Positions 55,344-63,959 of a stretch of DNA of 64,000 bases are shown here, piece by piece (position 1 is the first letter of the stretch; each line of letters begins with the position of its first letter). Where the stretch lies: NCBI GenBank assembly GCA_000002435.2, contig CM018792.1; one strand, written 5' to 3'. The notes under the pieces were generated by a model, which was not told the origin of the DNA, ran no database searches, and saw only the letters and a list, made by a program, of their open reading frames with translations. The stretch is from Giardia intestinalis (Eukaryota). Made by a program: the position numbers and the translations under genes.

Positions 55344-56372
55344 ATGGATTCGTTGTCTATCATGATAATAGTCTTCAATACGATCGCGTGCACACTGGCC
55401 ATTGTTGGAGCTGTACTAAATGTTTATACAAGAAAACACCCTTTCAACTCATTTTATAGAGAACGGCTTGCCATCTGCTTCTCCACCGTCGTCTTCACAC
55501 TGGTCTCGTCAGTTTTCAGGTCACCAACTCAGGTAGACATAGGTCAGATCCATACCTCCGTCCAGAGCGGCAAGGCTACCATCGAGTCAGCACTTGTTGC
55601 CGTCGGAAATTGGTTGCTCTGCAGCTACTACTTCGGCATGCACCCCACTTTCAATTGGTGTCTTATCTTTATGGCTTCTTTGCAGACCAAAAGGCGACAG
55701 AGAAAGTTTGAGGCAACTGACTTGAGCCTACTGCCATCTCCTACTGAGACCAACTGTAAGCTACACGGAGCATCAGATGAGGTTAAAGCTGTTAGTACTG
55801 ATACTCTTGCCCTACATTCATTCAATCTGCAGGCGATATACCCCAAGCCCATGAAATTTATCTCTGTCTTCTTCATCGCCACTGGGAGTGCAGTGACCGC
55901 AGGACTGCTCTTGGCAGCCATCCACGCCTTCCACTTTCTGGTCGTGGACAGGGCTGGTGCAATCTCCTCAAATAATAAGATTCCACCTCTGTACAAGGGG
56001 TTGTTTACGTCAGAAAGCAGCAGCGGCAACGTTAGAATAACCTTTCGGATGGGGCTCTACAGCTATTCCTTGCTCTCCACGTGTGCACGCGTCATAGCCA
56101 TATCAGCCTTTTTCATCATAACCGCACTGCAGTTGCGGAACGTAAAGAATCCAAACAAAGTAACTCGTAAGCGTAGCTGGATCAAGTTATCGCTGACCTT
56201 TGTTATTGACATCTTCCCATCGTTACTGACCCTACTGTCCACCTTCATCGATCGCACGTTCCAGTCGTTCACCTCTTTGATGCTGCTCCTCTGTGCAACA
56301 TCGTCCACCATGATATCCTTCAGTATAGTGCCCCCCTGCACTATACTAAACGAGCGAAAGATAAATTCTTAA
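55344..56372 (+). CDS. hypothetical polytopic membrane protein, about 342 aa
   Basis: The ORF-track start at 55227 is a TTG; the first in-frame ATG (MDSLSIMIIVFNTIACTLAIVGAV) is at 55344. At least six hydrophobic segments are present. The 3' end overlaps the convergent kinase gene by 4 nt. The start is uncertain because the context is not AT-rich. Confidence 0.45.
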   Translation: MDSLSIMIIVFNTIACTLAIVGAVLNVYTRKHPFNSFYRERLAICFSTVVFTLVSSVFRSPTQVDIGQIHTSVQSGKATIESALVAVGNWLLCSYYFGMHPTFNWCLIFMASLQTKRRQRKFEATDLSLLPSPTETNCKLHGASDEVKAVSTDTLALHSFNLQAIYPKPMKFISVFFIATGSAVTAGLLLAAIHAFHFLVVDRAGAISSNNKIPPLYKGLFTSESSSGNVRITFRMGLYSYSLLSTCARVIAISAFFIITALQLRNVKNPNKVTRKRSWIKLSLTFVIDIFPSLLTLLSTFIDRTFQSFTSLMLLLCATSSTMISFSIVPPCTILNERKINS

Positions 56373-58138
56373 CTCCAGTCGCATTCGTCTACAATGTTCT
56401 GCGTTGGCAGACTGAGAGCGACCTTGCGCAGCTCATCTAGGGAGAGCTGTGCTGATACCCCTGCGGTGCCGGACGACTGCCCATCTAGCACAGGGATCTC
56501 CAAATAGGGCGCAGATATCGACTTGGCTGGTTCGCTCGGGGCTTTTATCTCTGCTACCGCCTCGTCATTATCTATACTGTTAGGATTGCTTTTTGCTTTC
56601 TTTGCTTGTTGATTGGCGGGACAGAAGAGACTTGTCAGCTTGGCAATGGATCCTTCGTGGAAGGAGCCTGTCTTAACCCCCACCAGTTTTGATAAGTCGC
56701 TGACACCGGAAACGGTCACGGACGATCCTGTCCCGCAGCGTCTGTCTCCCAGACCAGTTACCAGTGTCTCATGGTGACTCTGAAGGTTGACAATATCACC
56801 GTTCGCGTCAAAAATAACCTGCTTTGGATGTGTAGGAAGCTTTGCCCGCTGGTATGCGCTCAGCACCCCCTTGATGAACTGATCGCACTCTTTCGGCAAA
56901 ATAGCGCCTGTTCCGGCAAAATCCTGGGCTATCTGCTGGTGCTCTCGAGGGAAAACCTCGAAGTTTCTTTTTAGAAGCTCGATGTCCCACTCCTCGCTCC
57001 CTAGATCCTTACTCAGGTTGATGTTCGGGATGGTGGGAGGGTCGTTTATTATGGCAAAATTGATATTTTTAAAAAAGGGGTGGTTCTTCAGTTCGGATGC
57101 GCCCATCTTAGATCCTAGACGGGTTTTGGGATTTATATCCAGCAACCTCTTGATCAGATCTTTGCATTTTTTGCTAACCTTATAGGGCCCATCGGGGAAT
57201 GTGAACACTCCTCGGAGTATTTTCTTGGAAATTGTGTCTAGAGACGCGCCCTTGCTCATGAAGGGTGTCACACCGTAGAGGCACTCATATATGAAAATTC
57301 CGAGAGTCCACCAATCAGCAGCCTGAGAGTGCTCACCTTGAAGGACTTCCGGAGGCAGACACTCAGGCGTGCCAACCAGAGACGCCGTTGTCTCCTGGAA
57401 GCCGGTTGGAAAGATCGTTGTAGTCTTTTTGCCGACAGATAGCTGTACAGGCTTATAGTGGTCCACCGTCGCACCCAATGTGAGTCTTTTAGCTAGATCG
57501 AAGTCCGTCAATCTAATATGGCCGTCGTGGTGTAGAAGAACATTTTCCGTCTTTAGATCTCTGTAAATGATGCCGTGATAATGAAGGTATTCAAACGCAG
57601 TAAGTATTTCGGCTGCGTAATGCTGCACAGTAGACTCTGGGAAACAGCGGTTGGGCTGCCTCTTGAGGACCTCAGCGAACTCACCTCCATTGCAGAATTC
57701 CATCAATAAATAGAAATTCCTTTCGTCTGCAAAACTAGCGTGGAGGGTCATTATGAACGGGTGCCGTGAGGTCATTAAAATGTGCAACTCTGTAAAGAAA
57801 CGGTTAACCTTATTGCGCTTGGTGAGATCGTGCTGACTACATACCTTCAGGGCAAAAACAGTCTCGTTTCTGCCCGTTGGAATCAGCACCTTCTCAGAGC
57901 TACGCTTGACCAGGTATACGCGCCCAGCGTCCCCGATTCCAAGAAGACAAAGAATTTGAAAGTCGGAGGCGCGGTAGTGAGCCATGTTACCGATGCGCTT
58001 TGTGTAGTGGAAGTTGTGGACGTCTGCTAGCCTGCTACCTCCGGTAAAAGCCTCCATCATACTGATGGTCTGCGACGCGGGATAGGACCCGACCTTCGCA
58101 TTTGGAAGAGTTCCTGTCTCCAGGATTGGCCTTGACAT
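56369..58138 (-). CDS. AGC-family Ser/Thr protein kinase, NDR/LATS-like, about 589 aa
   Basis: The Gly loop is LGIGDAGRVYLV, followed by ALKV and the catalytic loop YRDLKTENVLL. DFDLAKR is followed by a ~45-aa insert before SLVGTPECLPPEVL, which is typical of NDR kinases. DWWTLGIFIYECLYGVTPF and the HPFF motif are present, and a ~230-aa C-terminal tail follows. The ORF-track start at 58183 is a TTG; the first ATG (MSRPILETG) is at 58138-58136, preceded by the very AT-rich aaatatttttgcacataggaaagaaaaaac. Confidence 0.75.
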   Translation of the reverse strand: MSRPILETGTLPNAKVGSYPASQTISMMEAFTGGSRLADVHNFHYTKRIGNMAHYRASDFQILCLLGIGDAGRVYLVKRSSEKVLIPTGRNETVFALKVCSQHDLTKRNKVNRFFTELHILMTSRHPFIMTLHASFADERNFYLLMEFCNGGEFAEVLKRQPNRCFPESTVQHYAAEILTAFEYLHYHGIIYRDLKTENVLLHHDGHIRLTDFDLAKRLTLGATVDHYKPVQLSVGKKTTTIFPTGFQETTASLVGTPECLPPEVLQGEHSQAADWWTLGIFIYECLYGVTPFMSKGASLDTISKKILRGVFTFPDGPYKVSKKCKDLIKRLLDINPKTRLGSKMGASELKNHPFFKNINFAIINDPPTIPNINLSKDLGSEEWDIELLKRNFEVFPREHQQIAQDFAGTGAILPKECDQFIKGVLSAYQRAKLPTHPKQVIFDANGDIVNLQSHHETLVTGLGDRRCGTGSSVTVSGVSDLSKLVGVKTGSFHEGSIAKLTSLFCPANQQAKKAKSNPNSIDNDEAVAEIKAPSEPAKSISAPYLEIPVLDGQSSGTAGVSAQLSLDELRKVALSLPTQNIVDECDWS

Positions 58139-58385
58139 TGCAACTGTTTTTTCTTTCCTATGTGCAAAAATATTTTGCAACAATTTTTTAAACTCATTTT
58201 TTAAACGTCGTTTTTAATATGTTCAGAGATATTAGAATGAACATGCATTTTCGGATGTCGAGCATCGAGGATAAAGCATCTCTCGATCTGCAAGCTCCTT
58301 ACTAGAGACAAGTATCTTTTCAGTGCTGGTCTACACATCTCCACACGGACATGGCACACGCTTTCCCGTTGGGGGTTTTATTAAA

Positions 58386-60978: not shown

Positions 60979-61036
60979 TGCTTAAAAATAGCACAGTTTT
61001 TTAAAATCTGTGAAAAAATACATTCGAAAGGGCTTT
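60979..61036. promoter_or_regulatory. 58-bp AT-rich bidirectional initiator region (PP2A-B55 gene and GTPase-like gene)
   Basis: The sequence is cttaaaaatagcacagttttttaaaatctgtgaaaaaatacattcgaaagggcttt. Confidence 0.5.
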
Positions 61037-61573
61037 ATGCCGGTGGTGATCCGGAGCACGGTGGCCGTCCTTGGAGACCCGCAGACGGGGAAAAGCGCGC
61101 TCCTCAACACCGTTTGCGGGAATGGGGGGCAACATGCCCTGCAGCCGACCATGCGGCCAGATGTTTTCAAGAAGCAAATAAAGATACCAGGGTCAGATTA
61201 CAGCGTCGACCTTATTCTCATCGACTGCCCCTCACATCACCTTTCTTTCTCCCTGACAAAGAAGGCGATAGCAGAATGCCAGCAAATCCTCGTTCTTTCG
61301 TCTTTTCTCAGCGCCGATTCCCTGGCCAATATGGCAAAGTGGATTGAGATGTTTCGGGATGCAACGATGATCCCGAAGGTTTCTGGCGTTGCAGCAATAA
61401 GCTATGCACACGAAGACTCGTCTCAGTTTACATTTGAAGAGGCAGAGCGGCAGGCGAAGTCGCTCGGCCTGGGCGCTGTCCAGTGCAATCCGGCCACTGG
61501 AAGGGACTGTGACACGCCCTTTGCCATGCTCGCCCACCTTGCCCACAAGCGCTTCTTGAAGAACGGGGAGTAA
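61037..61573 (+). CDS. Ras-like small GTPase, atypical (degenerate G3/G4 motifs), about 178 aa
   Basis: The ORF-track start at 61010 is a GTG; the first ATG (MPVVIRSTVAVLGDPQTGKSALLNTV) follows ttttttaaaatctgtgaaaaaata. It has a P-loop GDPQTGKS, but the DxxG (LIDCPS) and NKxD motifs are non-canonical. IFT22/RABL5-like atypical GTPases are one possibility, and this is unverified. Confidence 0.45.
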   Translation: MPVVIRSTVAVLGDPQTGKSALLNTVCGNGGQHALQPTMRPDVFKKQIKIPGSDYSVDLILIDCPSHHLSFSLTKKAIAECQQILVLSSFLSADSLANMAKWIEMFRDATMIPKVSGVAAISYAHEDSSQFTFEEAERQAKSLGLGAVQCNPATGRDCDTPFAMLAHLAHKRFLKNGE

Positions 61574-61620
61574 ATATCGTCGAAGTCCTGTGTCCTCCTG
61601 TGTAAGCCTATAATTCAAAA

Positions 61621-61800
61621 ATGCCTATTTTGCTGCATGAAGAAAAGTGTGACGCCTGCTTGACGTGCGTGGGGACCTGCCCCGTTGGCATCATATCGGA
61701 GGAGAAGGGGGCCTTGAAGGTCACGCACGTAGAGGACTGCACGGAGTGCGGAGATTGTGTCGTGTCTTGCCATACAACTGCCCTGGAGGTGGATGTATGA
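61621..61800 (+). CDS. 2x[4Fe-4S] ferredoxin, 59 aa (missed by the ORF track, which has a 60-aa cutoff)
   Basis: The sequence ATG 61621 ... TGA 61798-61800 translates MPILLHEEKCDACLTCVGTCPVGIISEEKGALKVTHVEDCTECGDCVVSCHTTALEVDV*. It contains two C-x2-C-x2-C-x3-C(P) clusters. It lies in the gap between the GTPase-like and E1-like genes, with an AT-rich leader (taattcaaaa) before the ATG. Confidence 0.8.
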   Translation: MPILLHEEKCDACLTCVGTCPVGIISEEKGALKVTHVEDCTECGDCVVSCHTTALEVDV

Positions 61801-61824
61801 CCGCCCTGTGTGCATCTGTCTACT

Positions 61825-62967
61825 CTATACCGACAGAGGCAGTTTATAGTCTAGCCACTCTGCATAGACAAGCTTTTCATTGGCATAAACAAAGATAGCG
61901 CCCTCAAGATCTTTCTCGAGCGGCATCGCAGCGGCAGGCCCTGGTAGAAGTAAGCGAGAGTAAACTATTCTCTGGTCTGCAACAATGGTAAAGTCTGGGG
62001 CGTTGATGTATTCGGAGACTACACTACTGTATGACCTATCTGGACTGGAGCTAGGCAATGAAAAGGTACAGCTGCAATCTTTCTGGCGCTCTAGGGTGAA
62101 AGCACGGATATAAAGTCCATTGTAGGTGGAGATCATCCATAGGCACTCCTGTGGCCAGGCGTTCCTCGGCAAGCCACCAGTGCCGCTGGTCCTCCGGTCC
62201 AGTGAACCCATGAAATACTTACACCAGAGGGAAACGGCGTAGGAGGCCACCAAACCACTGATGTGAAACGGGGTTGAAACGACCTGCTGCAAGGCATTGG
62301 TAACGTCTCCTGGCGCTATTTGCAGGCCAAGATTGTGTATTTCACCCAGCTCATTGGCCCTTGAAAGCACAGCAGCCTCGTATGATTCTTCGGATTGTGG
62401 ATCATTACCATTGGACTCTGAGAGTGCATATGCAGCGATGAGAATGCAGTCTTCTGCGGTCCTAGGGATTCCTGGGACACTGCATAGAGGGCGCTTTCTC
62501 TTCGGGTACATCCATGACGTACAATAGAAACATGGGTACTGGCTGGAGTAGAGCCTTATACTTCCCGCCAGACCTTCTGATCCCACGTCTATTACTGTTT
62601 TCTGCGCTAGCAATAGTGCAGGGATAATCTTCCTACGTGCCTCCACATTGTCGACACACAGAAACGTCATAGCAGCGGTAGCGAGCTTGGTCACGAACGC
62701 AGGCCGAGCAGCATCTGTGGAATACGCTTCTGCCCGGTAACCTTGGCCCTCAATGAACGCACAAGCCACAGACGACTTGAACTCCCCGACGGATTCTCCA
62801 TTATAGAGGGCTTGCTTGCCAAGATTTGTTTCAGAAATTGTGTCCCTATCTACTATCAGTAACTTTACTTGGTCACTAGAAATGCTCGCTGTGTTAAACG
62901 CATGCATCAAGCTTCGAATCACCTCACAACCGCTCCCTCCAAGCCCTACCACAGCGATCGTGTACAT
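61825..62967 (-). CDS. ubiquitin-like modifier activating enzyme E1, catalytic-subunit type (UBA3/UBA2-like ThiF fold), 380 aa
   Basis: The ATG is confirmed (cat at 62965-62967). The nucleotide-binding motif is IAVVGLGGSGCEVIRSL...LLIVDRDTISETNLGKQ. The active-site region YPCFYCTSWMYPKRKRPLCSVPGIPRTAEDCI parallels UBA3 ([31 protein letters not shown]), with the catalytic Cys in PLCS. Confidence 0.7.
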   Translation of the reverse strand: MYTIAVVGLGGSGCEVIRSLMHAFNTASISSDQVKLLIVDRDTISETNLGKQALYNGESVGEFKSSVACAFIEGQGYRAEAYSTDAARPAFVTKLATAAMTFLCVDNVEARRKIIPALLLAQKTVIDVGSEGLAGSIRLYSSQYPCFYCTSWMYPKRKRPLCSVPGIPRTAEDCILIAAYALSESNGNDPQSEESYEAAVLSRANELGEIHNLGLQIAPGDVTNALQQVVSTPFHISGLVASYAVSLWCKYFMGSLDRRTSGTGGLPRNAWPQECLWMISTYNGLYIRAFTLERQKDCSCTFSLPSSSPDRSYSSVVSEYINAPDFTIVADQRIVYSRLLLPGPAAAMPLEKDLEGAIFVYANEKLVYAEWLDYKLPLSV

Positions 62968-63032: not shown

Positions 63033-63959
63033 ATGCCTGTTGTGACGCCAGAGCAGTGCCGAGAGTTCATGAAGAGCACAATCCAGATAGCTGTCACTTT
63101 AATCTGCTTTAAGAGAAGCATATTTCCACCCTCAGCCTTTGGAATTAAACGAATGATGGAGGTAGATGTCAAGTGCCTCGACAAAAGCGATAAGAATGCA
63201 TACGCCCTGTCTCAAGCCCTGGAGCTAGGAGTGTTCGACGCCATCGATAAGGGGTTTCTAAGAGAGGTAATCCTAGGAATCTTCTTGAACCGTGACGCAC
63301 CCATGGAGCTCATCGAGAGCTACAACTTCCGGATAAGCACCAGCCCATCACTGCCTCAATCTGCCCAATCTCTTATGGAAGAGGTTAACCGGTTCACAGG
63401 CCGTCTCCTAGGCACCTTAAACGAGCTACCGTCCTTGCCAGAAGACAAGGACATTCTGCTACGATGCTTTTATAAATCGAACACACCTGAGAGTTACGTT
63501 ATGCCATATTTTTCCCTGTGTAAGAATGCTGGAAGCCTTCATATTTCTTCGGAAAAGGCCCCTTATGAGGTATCTCTCGACCGCTTTGAGACGCCCTACG
63601 AGGCCATTGGCTTGAAACTGTATGTACCAGACTATATCACCTTAGATCACCAGTCAGAGAATCCGGAGCCTCACAAAGAACGCGTGTTGTTGGAGGCAAA
63701 GATAGATGAAATCCTGACCGGAAGGGCTGGAACCAAGGAGTGGGCTCTTGCCATACTACATCGAATCCTCTCTCTCAAATTCCCCATTTCACTCAAAGAC
63801 GCTGCGCAGTTGGTGCAGTGCAGTGTCTACAGAATTCGCAAAGTGGCTGCTGAGCACCCCTTTATCAAAATATCGAAGAGTGTCCTCAATGTCGTCGACG
63901 AATCAAAACTTCAATTCGCCCTGCAGTGCACAACCCGTGAGCTAACCGACCTTCTGTAG
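63033..63959 (+). CDS. HORMA-domain protein (Mad2/Rev7/Hop1 family), 308 aa
   Basis: The ATG at 63033 follows gaaattagaaactagca. The N-terminal ~110 aa, EQCREFMKSTIQIAVTLICFKRSIFPPSAFGIKRMMEVDVKCLDKSDKNAYALSQALELGVFDAIDKGFLREVILGIFLN, follow the HORMA core pattern (xSxxxVxEFxxxAIxxILYxRxxYPxxxFxxxKKYxxxLxxxxDxxLxxYLxxVxxxLxxWLxxxxVxKLVLVI). Confidence 0.6.
   Translation: MPVVTPEQCREFMKSTIQIAVTLICFKRSIFPPSAFGIKRMMEVDVKCLDKSDKNAYALSQALELGVFDAIDKGFLREVILGIFLNRDAPMELIESYNFRISTSPSLPQSAQSLMEEVNRFTGRLLGTLNELPSLPEDKDILLRCFYKSNTPESYVMPYFSLCKNAGSLHISSEKAPYEVSLDRFETPYEAIGLKLYVPDYITLDHQSENPEPHKERVLLEAKIDEILTGRAGTKEWALAILHRILSLKFPISLKDAAQLVQCSVYRIRKVAAEHPFIKISKSVLNVVDESKLQFALQCTTRELTDLL

What the first reader, a model, noticed from the sequence alone, without database searches (positions are those of the whole stretch)
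61621..61800. Unlisted 59-aa 2x[4Fe-4S] ferredoxin gene
The gene falls just below the 60-aa ORF-track cutoff, and the track instead lists a spurious 66-aa antisense ORF (61615-61815). The protein has two complete CxxCxxCxxxC(P) clusters and nothing else. This is the minimal clostridial-type ferredoxin expected in an anaerobic protist with PFOR- and hydrogenase-type metabolism. Small genes of this kind are easily left out of annotations.
Basis: seen in the sequence. Interest (0 to 1): 0.55.

Follow-up and report, generated by a model that had tools for sequence, protein, structure and literature searches.

The report
Known small Giardia ferredoxin gene
The 59-codon reading frame is a real gene under strong purifying selection for a small iron-sulfur electron carrier (ferredoxin) of the gut parasite Giardia, but it is already annotated (GL50803_4081) and listed in published studies, so the finding is correct but ordinary.

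Summary
Window 61621-61800 (+) is an intact 59-aa ORF with two CxxCxxCxxxC motifs, the first followed by Pro and the second by His. It passes the Pfam Fer4 and dicluster thresholds. A confident model (pLDDT 89) superposes end to end on the 55-aa clostridial 2[4Fe-4S] ferredoxins.

Between Giardia assemblages, 29-30 of 35 nucleotide differences fall at third codon positions (dN/dS 0.02-0.12), and all eight cysteines are invariant. The 66-aa antisense ORF has in-frame stops in the other assemblages and no family match, so it is spurious.

The gene is not unlisted in public annotation. The exact protein is XP_001707696.1 / KAE8304165.1 / UniProt A8BD10 of Giardia intestinalis WB, gene GL50803_4081. 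It is named as a ferredoxin in Ansell 2017 and 2018, Krakovka 2022 and a 2023 Fe-S protein inventory. RNA-seq detects its transcript; no proteomic dataset in Krakovka 2022 detected the protein.

The most likely function is a soluble cytosolic low-potential electron carrier downstream of pyruvate:ferredoxin oxidoreductase. This is inferred, not shown. Novelty: already known. Interest: low.

The parts
61621..61800 (+). Coding sequence of ferredoxin GL50803_4081 (59 aa plus TGA stop)
   Evidence: The ORF is read. Pfam Fer4 scores 34.9 bits (cut-off 21.1), and Fer4_9, Fer4_10 and Fer4_7 are above their cut-offs. The exact protein is KAE8304165.1 / XP_001707696.1, which is GL50803_4081. dN/dS is 0.02-0.12.
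61648..61683 (+). Cluster motif 1: C10-D-A-C13-L-T-C16-V-G-T-C20-P21
   Evidence: All four Cys and the Pro are invariant in 7 Giardia variants. C10, C16 and C20 are invariant, and C13 and P21 nearly so, in the 30-sequence alignment.
61738..61773 (+). Cluster motif 2: C40-T-E-C43-G-D-C46-V-V-S-C50-H51 (His where the classical motif has Pro)
   Evidence: The Cys and the His are invariant in Giardia. A bacterial relative, P0030 (Syntrophorhabdaceae), also has Cys-His, and others have Thr, Gly, Val or Glu at this position.
61612..61620 (+). AT-rich element AATTCAAAA abutting the ATG; putative Giardia-type initiator or core promoter
   Evidence: It is invariant in all assemblages while the rest of the 47-nt intergenic spacer has diverged. 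Neighbouring genes also have A-rich stretches before their ATG. A promoter function is inferred from general knowledge of Giardia transcription and was not tested.
61603..61605 (+). In-frame upstream stop (TAA) that closes the reading frame 15 nt before the ATG
   Evidence: read directly.
61569..61575 (+). AGTAAAT, a Giardia polyadenylation-signal consensus overlapping the stop codon of the upstream Ras-like GTPase gene. It marks the end of the preceding transcription unit.
   Evidence: The Ras family match of the ORF ending at 61573 is.
61615..61815 (-). 66-aa antisense ORF: spurious
   Evidence: It has no Pfam match. The same frame carries 4-5 stop codons in loci L007-L010 from other assemblages. 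Its codon position 1 coincides with position 3 of the + frame, where 29-30 of 35 substitutions fall.
61825..62967 (-). Convergent neighbour, a ThiF-family (E1-like) gene. Its stop codon lies only 24 nt from the ferredoxin stop, so the 3' ends of the two transcripts must overlap or abut.
   Evidence: The synteny is conserved in all loci.

Best explanation
Window 61621-61800 (+) is the already annotated Giardia intestinalis gene GL50803_4081. It encodes a free-standing 59-residue bacterial-type ferredoxin that binds two [4Fe-4S] clusters. By analogy with clostridial ferredoxins, C10, C13, C16 and C50 would hold one cluster, and C40, C43, C46 and C20 the other, in a pseudo-twofold (beta-alpha-beta)x2 fold. 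It most likely acts in the cytosol as a soluble low-potential one-electron carrier. It would take electrons from pyruvate:ferredoxin oxidoreductase and pass them to acceptors such as [FeFe]-hydrogenase, ferredoxin-nitroreductases or oxygen-detoxifying enzymes, and incidentally to nitro-drugs such as metronidazole. It is one of about six ferredoxin paralogues in Giardia and is a low-abundance one. Shown here: the gene is real, under strong purifying selection, annotated and transcribed, and it has the sequence and predicted fold of a 2[4Fe-4S] ferredoxin. Inferred: cluster content, cytosolic location, redox partners and any role in drug activation.
For: Sequence and family: the protein has two CxxCxxCxxxC motifs. 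Pfam Fer4, Fer4_9, Fer4_10 and Fer4_7 are above their gathering scores. PDB sequence matches are to dicluster ferredoxin domains and to the clostridial ferredoxins 1clf, 1dur and 1fca. Fold: the AlphaFold2 model has pLDDT 89.4 and element order E-H-E-E-H-E. Foldseek matches 1fdn and 1fca at TM(target) 0.79 and rmsd 1.8 A over 55 columns, and 1dur at TM(target) 0.81. Selection: the window differs from assemblage-B-like loci at 35 positions, 29-30 of them at codon position 3, with dN/dS 0.024-0.119. All 8 Cys are invariant, and the ORF length and synteny are conserved. Identity: the exact protein is XP_001707696.1 / KAE8304165.1 / A8BD10, and KAE8304165.1 is GL50803_4081, listed as '[4Fe-4S], redox metabolism' in PMC10578589 Table S2. 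Expression: in PMC8866875 Table 2 the gene has logFC 0.62, logCPM 3.667 and FDR 0.026. In Table 11 it is '[4Fe-4S] Ferredoxin 2', with RNA up in lines M1 and JWB. PMC5355454 reports increased GL_4081 transcription in line 713-r. Location: the PMC10578589 inventory finds that the only mitosomal Fe-S client is the [2Fe-2S] ferredoxin, and that all [4Fe-4S] clients are cytosolic or nuclear.
Against: The protein is 'NA' in all nine proteomic columns of PMC8866875 Table 11 and is absent from the held supplementary files of PMC5913674. No peptide evidence was therefore found. Transcript abundance is modest (logCPM about 3.7). No biochemical work on this paralogue was found, so partners, potentials and cluster type are unproven. 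The second motif ends in Cys-His rather than Cys-Pro. No canonical AGTRAAY polyadenylation signal lies on the + strand until 61959, 159 nt past the stop. No NCBIfam equivalog cut-off is reached, so the protein cannot be placed in a functionally defined ferredoxin subfamily.
Confidence: 0.85

Rival explanations
1. It is a dedicated ferredoxin: a partner-specific electron donor or acceptor (for example for the flavodiiron protein, superoxide reductase, a glutamate-synthase-like FNR or a nitroreductase), not a general PFOR acceptor.
For: Giardia keeps about six ferredoxin paralogues, and published work proposes that individual ones serve FDP or SOR (PMC8866875) or GL_87577 (PMC6312909). This paralogue has low expression. 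Its best sequence matches are domains embedded in enzyme complexes, namely MvhB/EhbK polyferredoxins and HydA2.
Against: No partner gene is linked to it. The neighbours are a Ras-like GTPase, a WD40 protein, a ThiF-family enzyme and Hop1, and eukaryotic gene order is uninformative anyway. The polyferredoxin E-values are inflated by summing many repeats.
Confidence: 0.2
2. It binds one [3Fe-4S] and one [4Fe-4S] cluster (a 7Fe ferredoxin), or a single cluster, rather than two [4Fe-4S] clusters.
For: The second motif ends in Cys-His instead of Cys-Pro. From my own memory, not checked here, a ferredoxin purified from Giardia in the 1990s was reported to contain a 3Fe cluster.
Against: All eight cysteines are present and invariant, with classical spacing. 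7Fe ferredoxins normally lack the second Cys of one motif, as seen in relative P0012 with 'CNGSQAC'. PMC6519707 assigns the three-cysteine motif to a different paralogue, Fd6.
Confidence: 0.07
3. It is transcribed but not translated, or is a decaying relic with no present function.
For: The protein was never detected in the proteomic datasets compiled in PMC8866875. Transcript level is low.
Against: dN/dS is 0.02-0.12 with synonymous sites near saturation. All cluster ligands are invariant, and the start, stop and length are conserved across assemblages. A 59-aa protein with 8 Cys and only three Lys yields few detectable tryptic peptides, so its absence from shotgun proteomics is weak evidence.
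Confidence: 0.04
4. It is an exon or domain of a larger protein. PMC6519707 raises this possibility for some putative Giardia ferredoxins.
For: The ORF ends in GTATGA, one mismatch from the Giardia 5' splice site GTATGT (the consensus is from my own knowledge). One assemblage-B annotation, KWX12487.1, adds 9 N-terminal residues.
Against: An in-frame TAA lies 15 nt upstream. The stop is conserved in position, and in L008 it is TAG, which destroys the GTATGA. No match within two mismatches to the Giardia branch/acceptor motif CTRACACACAG lies on the + strand downstream until 62651, inside the convergent gene, and total matches are at chance level. The 59-aa length equals that of free-standing bacterial ferredoxins. 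The 9-aa extension is not seen in other assemblages.
Confidence: 0.02
5. The 66-aa antisense ORF (61615-61815, - strand) is the real gene.
For: It is longer than the + ORF and starts with ATG.
Against: It has no family match. The frame has 4-5 in-frame stops in the other assemblages. Most substitutions fall on its first codon position.
Confidence: 0.01

Closest known systems
GL50803_4081 of Giardia intestinalis WB (XP_001707696.1, KAE8304165.1, UniProt A8BD10). [quoted passage not shown]
   Same: It is identical in sequence over all 59 residues, with the same neighbours, including Hop1 GL50803_4084.
   Different: Nothing differs; it is the same gene. The link to 'Fd4' (DHA2_151386 / GSB_153527) rests only on the shared source name 'Putative oxidoreductase' of ESU39836.1 and ESU41331.1 and is not proven.
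Clostridial-type 2[4Fe-4S] ferredoxins (Clostridium acidurici 1FDN/1FCA, C. pasteurianum 1CLF, Peptostreptococcus asaccharolyticus 1DUR)
   Same: The size is similar (55 vs 59 aa). It has two CxxCxxCxxxC motifs about 19 residues apart and nothing else. The predicted fold superposes end to end (TM normalised to target 0.79-0.81, rmsd 1.8-1.9 A).
   Different: Identity is only 26-29%. It has 2-3 extra N-terminal residues, and His replaces Pro after the last Cys. It is encoded in a eukaryotic nuclear genome.
Repeat units of methanogen polyferredoxins (MvhB 9sw6_G; Methanobrevibacter EhbK)
   Same: These are the best-scoring sequence relatives outside Giardia. Single repeats align over residues 5-59.
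   Different: Those proteins have 6-8 fused dicluster units (372-412 aa) and act as wires inside hydrogenase complexes. This one is a single free unit. Their high scores come from summing repeats: the best single repeat has i-Evalue 0.006.
Other Giardia ferredoxins: Fd1 GL50803_9662, Fd3 GL50803_10329, GL50803_23325 (all [4Fe-4S]), the mitosomal [2Fe-2S] GL50803_27266, and the N-terminal ferredoxin domains of nitroreductases Fd-NR1 and Fd-NR2
   Same: They share the dicluster ferredoxin domain class (except 27266) and the same presumed PFOR-linked electron-transfer network.
   Different: They are separate loci and paralogues. None falls in the same 50%-identity cluster as this protein. I did not compare the sequences directly because I could not fetch them.

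Membership tests
Bacterial-type 2[4Fe-4S] dicluster ferredoxin (Pfam Fer4 clan; clostridial type) | Two CxxCxxCxxxC cysteine motifs in one short polypeptide | tested here: met
   C10/13/16/20 and C40/43/46/50. They are invariant in Giardia variants. Six of the eight are invariant and the other two nearly so in the 30-sequence alignment.
Bacterial-type 2[4Fe-4S] dicluster ferredoxin (Pfam Fer4 clan; clostridial type) | Profile match above the curated threshold | tested here: met
   Scores against cut-offs: Fer4 34.9 vs 21.1, Fer4_9 33.6 vs 27, Fer4_10 32.9 vs 25.5, Fer4_7 31.3 vs 27 bits.
Bacterial-type 2[4Fe-4S] dicluster ferredoxin (Pfam Fer4 clan; clostridial type) | Proline after the fourth cysteine of each motif (CP) | tested here: inconclusive
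   Motif 1 has C20-P21, but motif 2 has C50-H51. The Pro is not universal in the family: relatives have H, T, G, V or E at that position. The deviation therefore does not exclude membership.
Bacterial-type 2[4Fe-4S] dicluster ferredoxin (Pfam Fer4 clan; clostridial type) | Pseudo-symmetric (beta-alpha-beta)x2 fold of about 55-60 residues | tested here: met
   The model has pLDDT 89.4 and element order E-H-E-E-H-E. It matches 1fdn, 1fca and 1dur at TM(target) 0.79-0.81. This is a prediction, not a solved structure.
Bacterial-type 2[4Fe-4S] dicluster ferredoxin (Pfam Fer4 clan; clostridial type) | Actually binds two [4Fe-4S] clusters with low midpoint potentials | not testable with these tools
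   This needs anaerobic reconstitution, Fe/S analysis, EPR and electrochemistry.
Alvin-type (Allochromatium vinosum) 2[4Fe-4S] ferredoxins | Insertion of 6-8 residues between the second and third Cys of motif 2, plus a C-terminal helical extension (definition from my own knowledge) | tested here: not met
   Motif 2 has the plain spacing C40-x2-C43-x2-C46, and the chain ends 9 residues after C50.
7Fe ([3Fe-4S][4Fe-4S]) ferredoxins | One motif lacks its second cysteine (CxxXxxC) | tested here: not met
   Both motifs have all four Cys.
Functionally defined prokaryotic ferredoxin equivalogs (HgcB, PorD/KorD delta subunit, FdxA family) | NCBIfam score above the curated cut-off | tested here: not met
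   Scores against cut-offs: HgcB 41.9 vs 99, PorD_KorD 32.9 vs 60, FdxA_fam 31.7 vs 65 bits.
Physiological PFOR-coupled ferredoxin of Giardia | Reduced by Giardia PFOR and able to reduce hydrogenase, nitroreductases or metronidazole | not testable with these tools
   There is only circumstantial evidence: the gene is listed among PFOR co-factor candidates.

The most novel reading that the evidence does not exclude
GL50803_4081 may be a Giardia duodenalis-lineage-specific ferredoxin of prokaryotic origin. No relative above 50% identity was found outside G. duodenalis among 1.84 billion cluster representatives, and every near relative that carries a name is bacterial or archaeal. Under this reading it has a specialised role rather than a redundant one, for example as the missing electron donor to the flavodiiron protein or superoxide reductase, or as a minor route of metronidazole activation whose up-regulation in resistant lines is adaptive.
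Probability: 0.15. Interest if true: 0.3.

Novelty: already known. Interest (0 to 1): 0.08.

Why it matters
For a genome scan, the lesson is methodological. A 60-aa ORF cut-off hides a real, selected gene and shows a spurious antisense ORF in its place. Biologically, ferredoxins carry the electrons that activate metronidazole in Giardia, so each paralogue is of some interest for drug resistance. However, this one is already annotated, named and included in published transcriptomic and Fe-S-protein inventories. What remains open is its specific partner and the lack of any protein-level detection.

Tried and rejected
1. I first guessed that the WB gene ID was GL50803_23325 (note 1). This was wrong. 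Table S2 of PMC10578589 ties KAE8304165.1 to GL50803_4081.

2. A full-text search for 'GL50803_4081' mostly returned actin, GL50803_40817, through prefix matching. Those papers are irrelevant.

3. Searches by accession number and for GL50803_10329 found nothing.

4. The stored Ansell 2017 expression table is cut off before this gene. The supplements of Emery 2018 held in the library do not contain it.

5. A search for a canonical Giardia polyadenylation signal (AGTRAAY) just after the stop found none before 61959. The motif count in the window is at chance level, so the 3' end remains undefined.

6. A search for a Giardia intron acceptor/branch motif gave chance-level counts and nothing suitable downstream. 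The exon hypothesis was rejected.

7. The sigma-70 promoter and terminator scan found nothing, and it is not applicable to a eukaryote.

8. The first word-indexed homology search reached only the Giardia cluster. The exhaustive search was needed to see distant relatives.

9. The N-terminal sequence of the ferredoxins purified from Giardia in the 1990s could not be retrieved. I therefore could not test whether this gene encodes one of them.

Full report
OBSERVATION

The + strand from 61621 to 61800 reads ATG ... TGA and translates to 59 residues: MPILLHEEKCDACLTCVGTCPVGIISEEKGALKVTHVEDCTECGDCVVSCHTTALEVDV. An in-frame TAA at 61603-61605 closes the frame 15 nt upstream of the ATG.

The two cysteine motifs are C10xxC13xxC16xxxC20-P21 and C40xxC43xxC46xxxC50-H51. 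The 66-aa antisense ORF at 61615-61815 is also present.

The pattern is not a chance product of a cysteine-rich genome. In six-frame translation of all 64 kb there are only three CxxCxxCxxxC matches, two of them here. The paired motif occurs once, against none in 200 shuffles that preserve local composition.

IS IT A GENE?

Yes. The protein passes the curated Pfam thresholds for Fer4 (34.9 bits against 21.1) and for the dicluster models Fer4_9, Fer4_10 and Fer4_7. The antisense ORF matches nothing.

Loci from other Giardia assemblages were fetched through the protein cluster. All of them keep a 59-codon ORF between the same neighbours: a WD40 gene (-), a Ras-like GTPase (+), the ferredoxin (+), a ThiF-family gene (-), the HORMA gene Hop1 (+) and HSP70 (+).

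Between the window and the assemblage-B-like loci, 35 of 180 positions differ, and 29-30 of these are third codon positions. Nei-Gojobori dN/dS is 0.024-0.119, and synonymous sites are near saturation. All eight cysteines, P21 and H51 are invariant among seven protein variants.

In the antisense frame the same loci carry four or five stop codons. That frame's first codon position coincides with the + frame's third position.

WHAT ORGANISM, AND IS IT UNLISTED?

[quoted passage not shown] It has been seen on 152 contigs.

[quoted passage not shown] That fixes the gene ID. My earlier guess of GL50803_23325 was wrong.

The gene is cited by ID in several papers:
- Ansell et al. 2017 (PMC5355454) name it as one of 'two un-annotated ferredoxins (GL_23325 and GL_4081)' whose increased transcription was part of an up-regulated 4Fe-4S gene set in the metronidazole-resistant line 713-r.
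- Ansell et al. 2018 (PMC6312909) list it as a structural homologue of ferredoxins.
- Krakovka et al. 2022 (PMC8866875) call it '[4Fe-4S] Ferredoxin 2'.

The assemblage A2 and B orthologues (ESU39836.1, ESU41331.1, QBO56822-6) are named 'Putative oxidoreductase'. That matches 'Putative oxidoreductase 4Fe-4S (Fd4)' of Saghaug et al. 2019 (PMC6519707). This last link rests on the name only.

EXPRESSION

In Table 2 of PMC8866875 the gene has logFC 0.62, logCPM 3.667 and FDR 0.026. In Table 11, the RNA columns give 0.62 (line M1) and 0.33 (JWB) and 0 elsewhere. All nine protein columns are NA.

The transcript is therefore detected at modest level. I found no peptide evidence, and none in the held supplements of PMC5913674 either. 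For a 59-residue protein with eight cysteines and three lysines this absence is weak evidence, but it is a real gap.

ANATOMY OF THE LOCUS

The upstream Ras-like gene ends at 61573, with AGTAAAT (61569-61575) overlapping its stop codon. Only 47 nt separate it from the ferredoxin ATG.

Within that spacer the nine bases AATTCAAAA directly before the ATG are invariant in every assemblage, while the rest has diverged and carries indels. From general knowledge of Giardia, which has very short 5' UTRs and AT-rich initiators abutting the start codon, this is probably the core promoter or initiator. That is an inference.

Downstream, the convergent ThiF-family gene stops 24 nt away (61825-61827). No AGTRAAY occurs on the + strand before 61959. 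The ferredoxin mRNA must therefore end inside, or overlap, the 3' end of the neighbour. The 3' end is undefined.

An intron is unlikely. The terminal GTATGA resembles the Giardia donor site but is lost in L008, where the stop is TAG. No acceptor/branch motif stands out downstream.

WHAT IT IS AND HOW IT WORKS

Sequence comparison with solved structures finds only dicluster ferredoxin domains: MvhB polyferredoxin, the N-terminal domain of HydA2, NfnB, [FeFe]-hydrogenase F-domains, and more weakly the 55-aa clostridial ferredoxins 1clf, 1dur and 1fca.

An exhaustive HMMER pass over 1.84 billion cluster representatives found just one cluster above 50% identity, the Giardia one. After that come polyferredoxins, and free-standing proteins of roughly 55-70 aa at 31-47% identity. 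The ones that carry names are from methanogens, Syntrophorhabdaceae and Clostridiales. The nearest small one, P0012, sits among bacterial genes. I saw no eukaryotic relative, but most hits are unnamed.

An alignment with 27 of these small ferredoxins shows the same architecture and length. The residue after the last cysteine varies (P, H, T, G, V, E), so Cys-His is within the family's range.

An AlphaFold2 model built on that alignment is confident (mean pLDDT 89.4) and has the strand-helix-strand-strand-helix-strand order. Foldseek aligns it end to end with the Clostridium acidurici ferredoxin (1fdn/1fca: TM 0.79 normalised to the target, rmsd 1.8 A over 55 columns) and with 1dur (0.81). No NCBIfam equivalog cut-off is reached, so no finer functional subfamily can be assigned.

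By homology, C10, C13, C16 and C50 should ligate one [4Fe-4S] cluster, and C40, C43, C46 and C20 the other. The protein should shuttle single low-potential electrons. The Fe-S inventory places all Giardia [4Fe-4S] clients outside the mitosome, so a cytosolic location is likely.

The literature treats the Giardia ferredoxins as acceptors of PFOR and as donors to hydrogenase and nitroreductases, possibly also to FDP and SOR, and as activators of metronidazole. Which of these applies to this paralogue is unknown.

RIVALS

- A partner-specific role is plausible but untested (about 0.2).
- A 7Fe cluster composition is unlikely, because all eight Cys are present (about 0.07).
- A non-translated relic is contradicted by the selection data (about 0.04).
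- An exon of a larger gene is contradicted by the flanking stops (about 0.02).
- The antisense ORF as the real gene is refuted.

VERDICT

The interpretation as a minimal clostridial-type ferredoxin is supported. The implication that the gene is missing from annotation is not. The gene is already known as GL50803_4081, and interest is low.

The residual open points are the absence of protein-level detection, the undefined 3' end, the specific redox partner, and whether this paralogue is restricted to the G. duodenalis lineage and of lateral prokaryotic origin.

Noticed in passing
window 377-22511 (+): A head-to-tail array of about 11-12 variant-specific surface protein genes (Pfam VSP, PF03302), spaced 1.8-2.0 kb apart. 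Copies are mosaic, with 60-100% identity between copies depending on the segment. Each unit is followed by AGTGAAT, which overlaps the ATG of the next gene (ggtAGTGAATG). The 25 nt upstream of the ATGs at 377 and 20523 are identical. Several units open only from GTG (2946, 6321, 8160, 13353, 15653, 16940, 19107) and may be truncated or pseudogenes. VSP arrays are a known Giardia feature.
   Followed up: partly
window 63033-63959 (+): This is the HORMA-domain gene (Pfam HORMA, 102.9 bits), that is Hop1, GL50803_4084 according to PMC8866875 Table 11. Its start codon is called differently in different assemblies (268, 296, 308 or 363 aa), so the true N-terminus is uncertain.
   Followed up: no
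window 61010-61573 (+): This is a divergent Ras-family small GTPase (Pfam Ras, 35.4 bits). It is called as 178 aa from the ATG at 61037 in most assemblies, but the ORF opens at a GTG at 61010 (187 aa), and one assemblage-B call is 186 aa. Its stop codon is embedded in a canonical AGTAAAT polyadenylation signal.
   Followed up: no
window 61801-61824 and flanks: The ferredoxin and ThiF-family genes converge with only 24 nt between their stop codons, and neither has a canonical AGTRAAY nearby on its own strand. On the - strand, AGTAGAC (one mismatch from the consensus) directly follows the ThiF stop. The two mRNAs probably overlap as natural antisense at their 3' ends.
   Followed up: partly
L010 (GCA_000498735.1 AHHH01000133.1) and protein P0005 (KWX12487.1): One assemblage-B annotation gives the ferredoxin a 9-residue N-terminal extension (MYACGSNSK, 68 aa). 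No other assemblage shares it, and the invariant AATTCAAAA-ATG context does not support it. It is likely a mis-called start.
   Followed up: partly
window 57985-58017 (+): This is the only other CxxCxxCxxxC match in the six-frame translation (CYRCALCSGSC). It lies antisense to the 604-aa ORF at 56369-58183 (-). It is a single motif, and shuffles occasionally give one (mean 0.14 per shuffle, maximum 2).
   Followed up: no
literature, not sequence: The naming of Giardia ferredoxins is inconsistent between papers. GL50803_4081 is 'un-annotated ferredoxin' (2017), probably 'Fd4' (2019) and '[4Fe-4S] Ferredoxin 2' (2022). 'Fd2' and 'Fd3' are applied to different genes in different papers. Ansell 2017 reports GL_4081 up in line 713-r, whereas the Krakovka 2022 table shows 0 for J713r and 0.33 for JWBr.
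   Followed up: no
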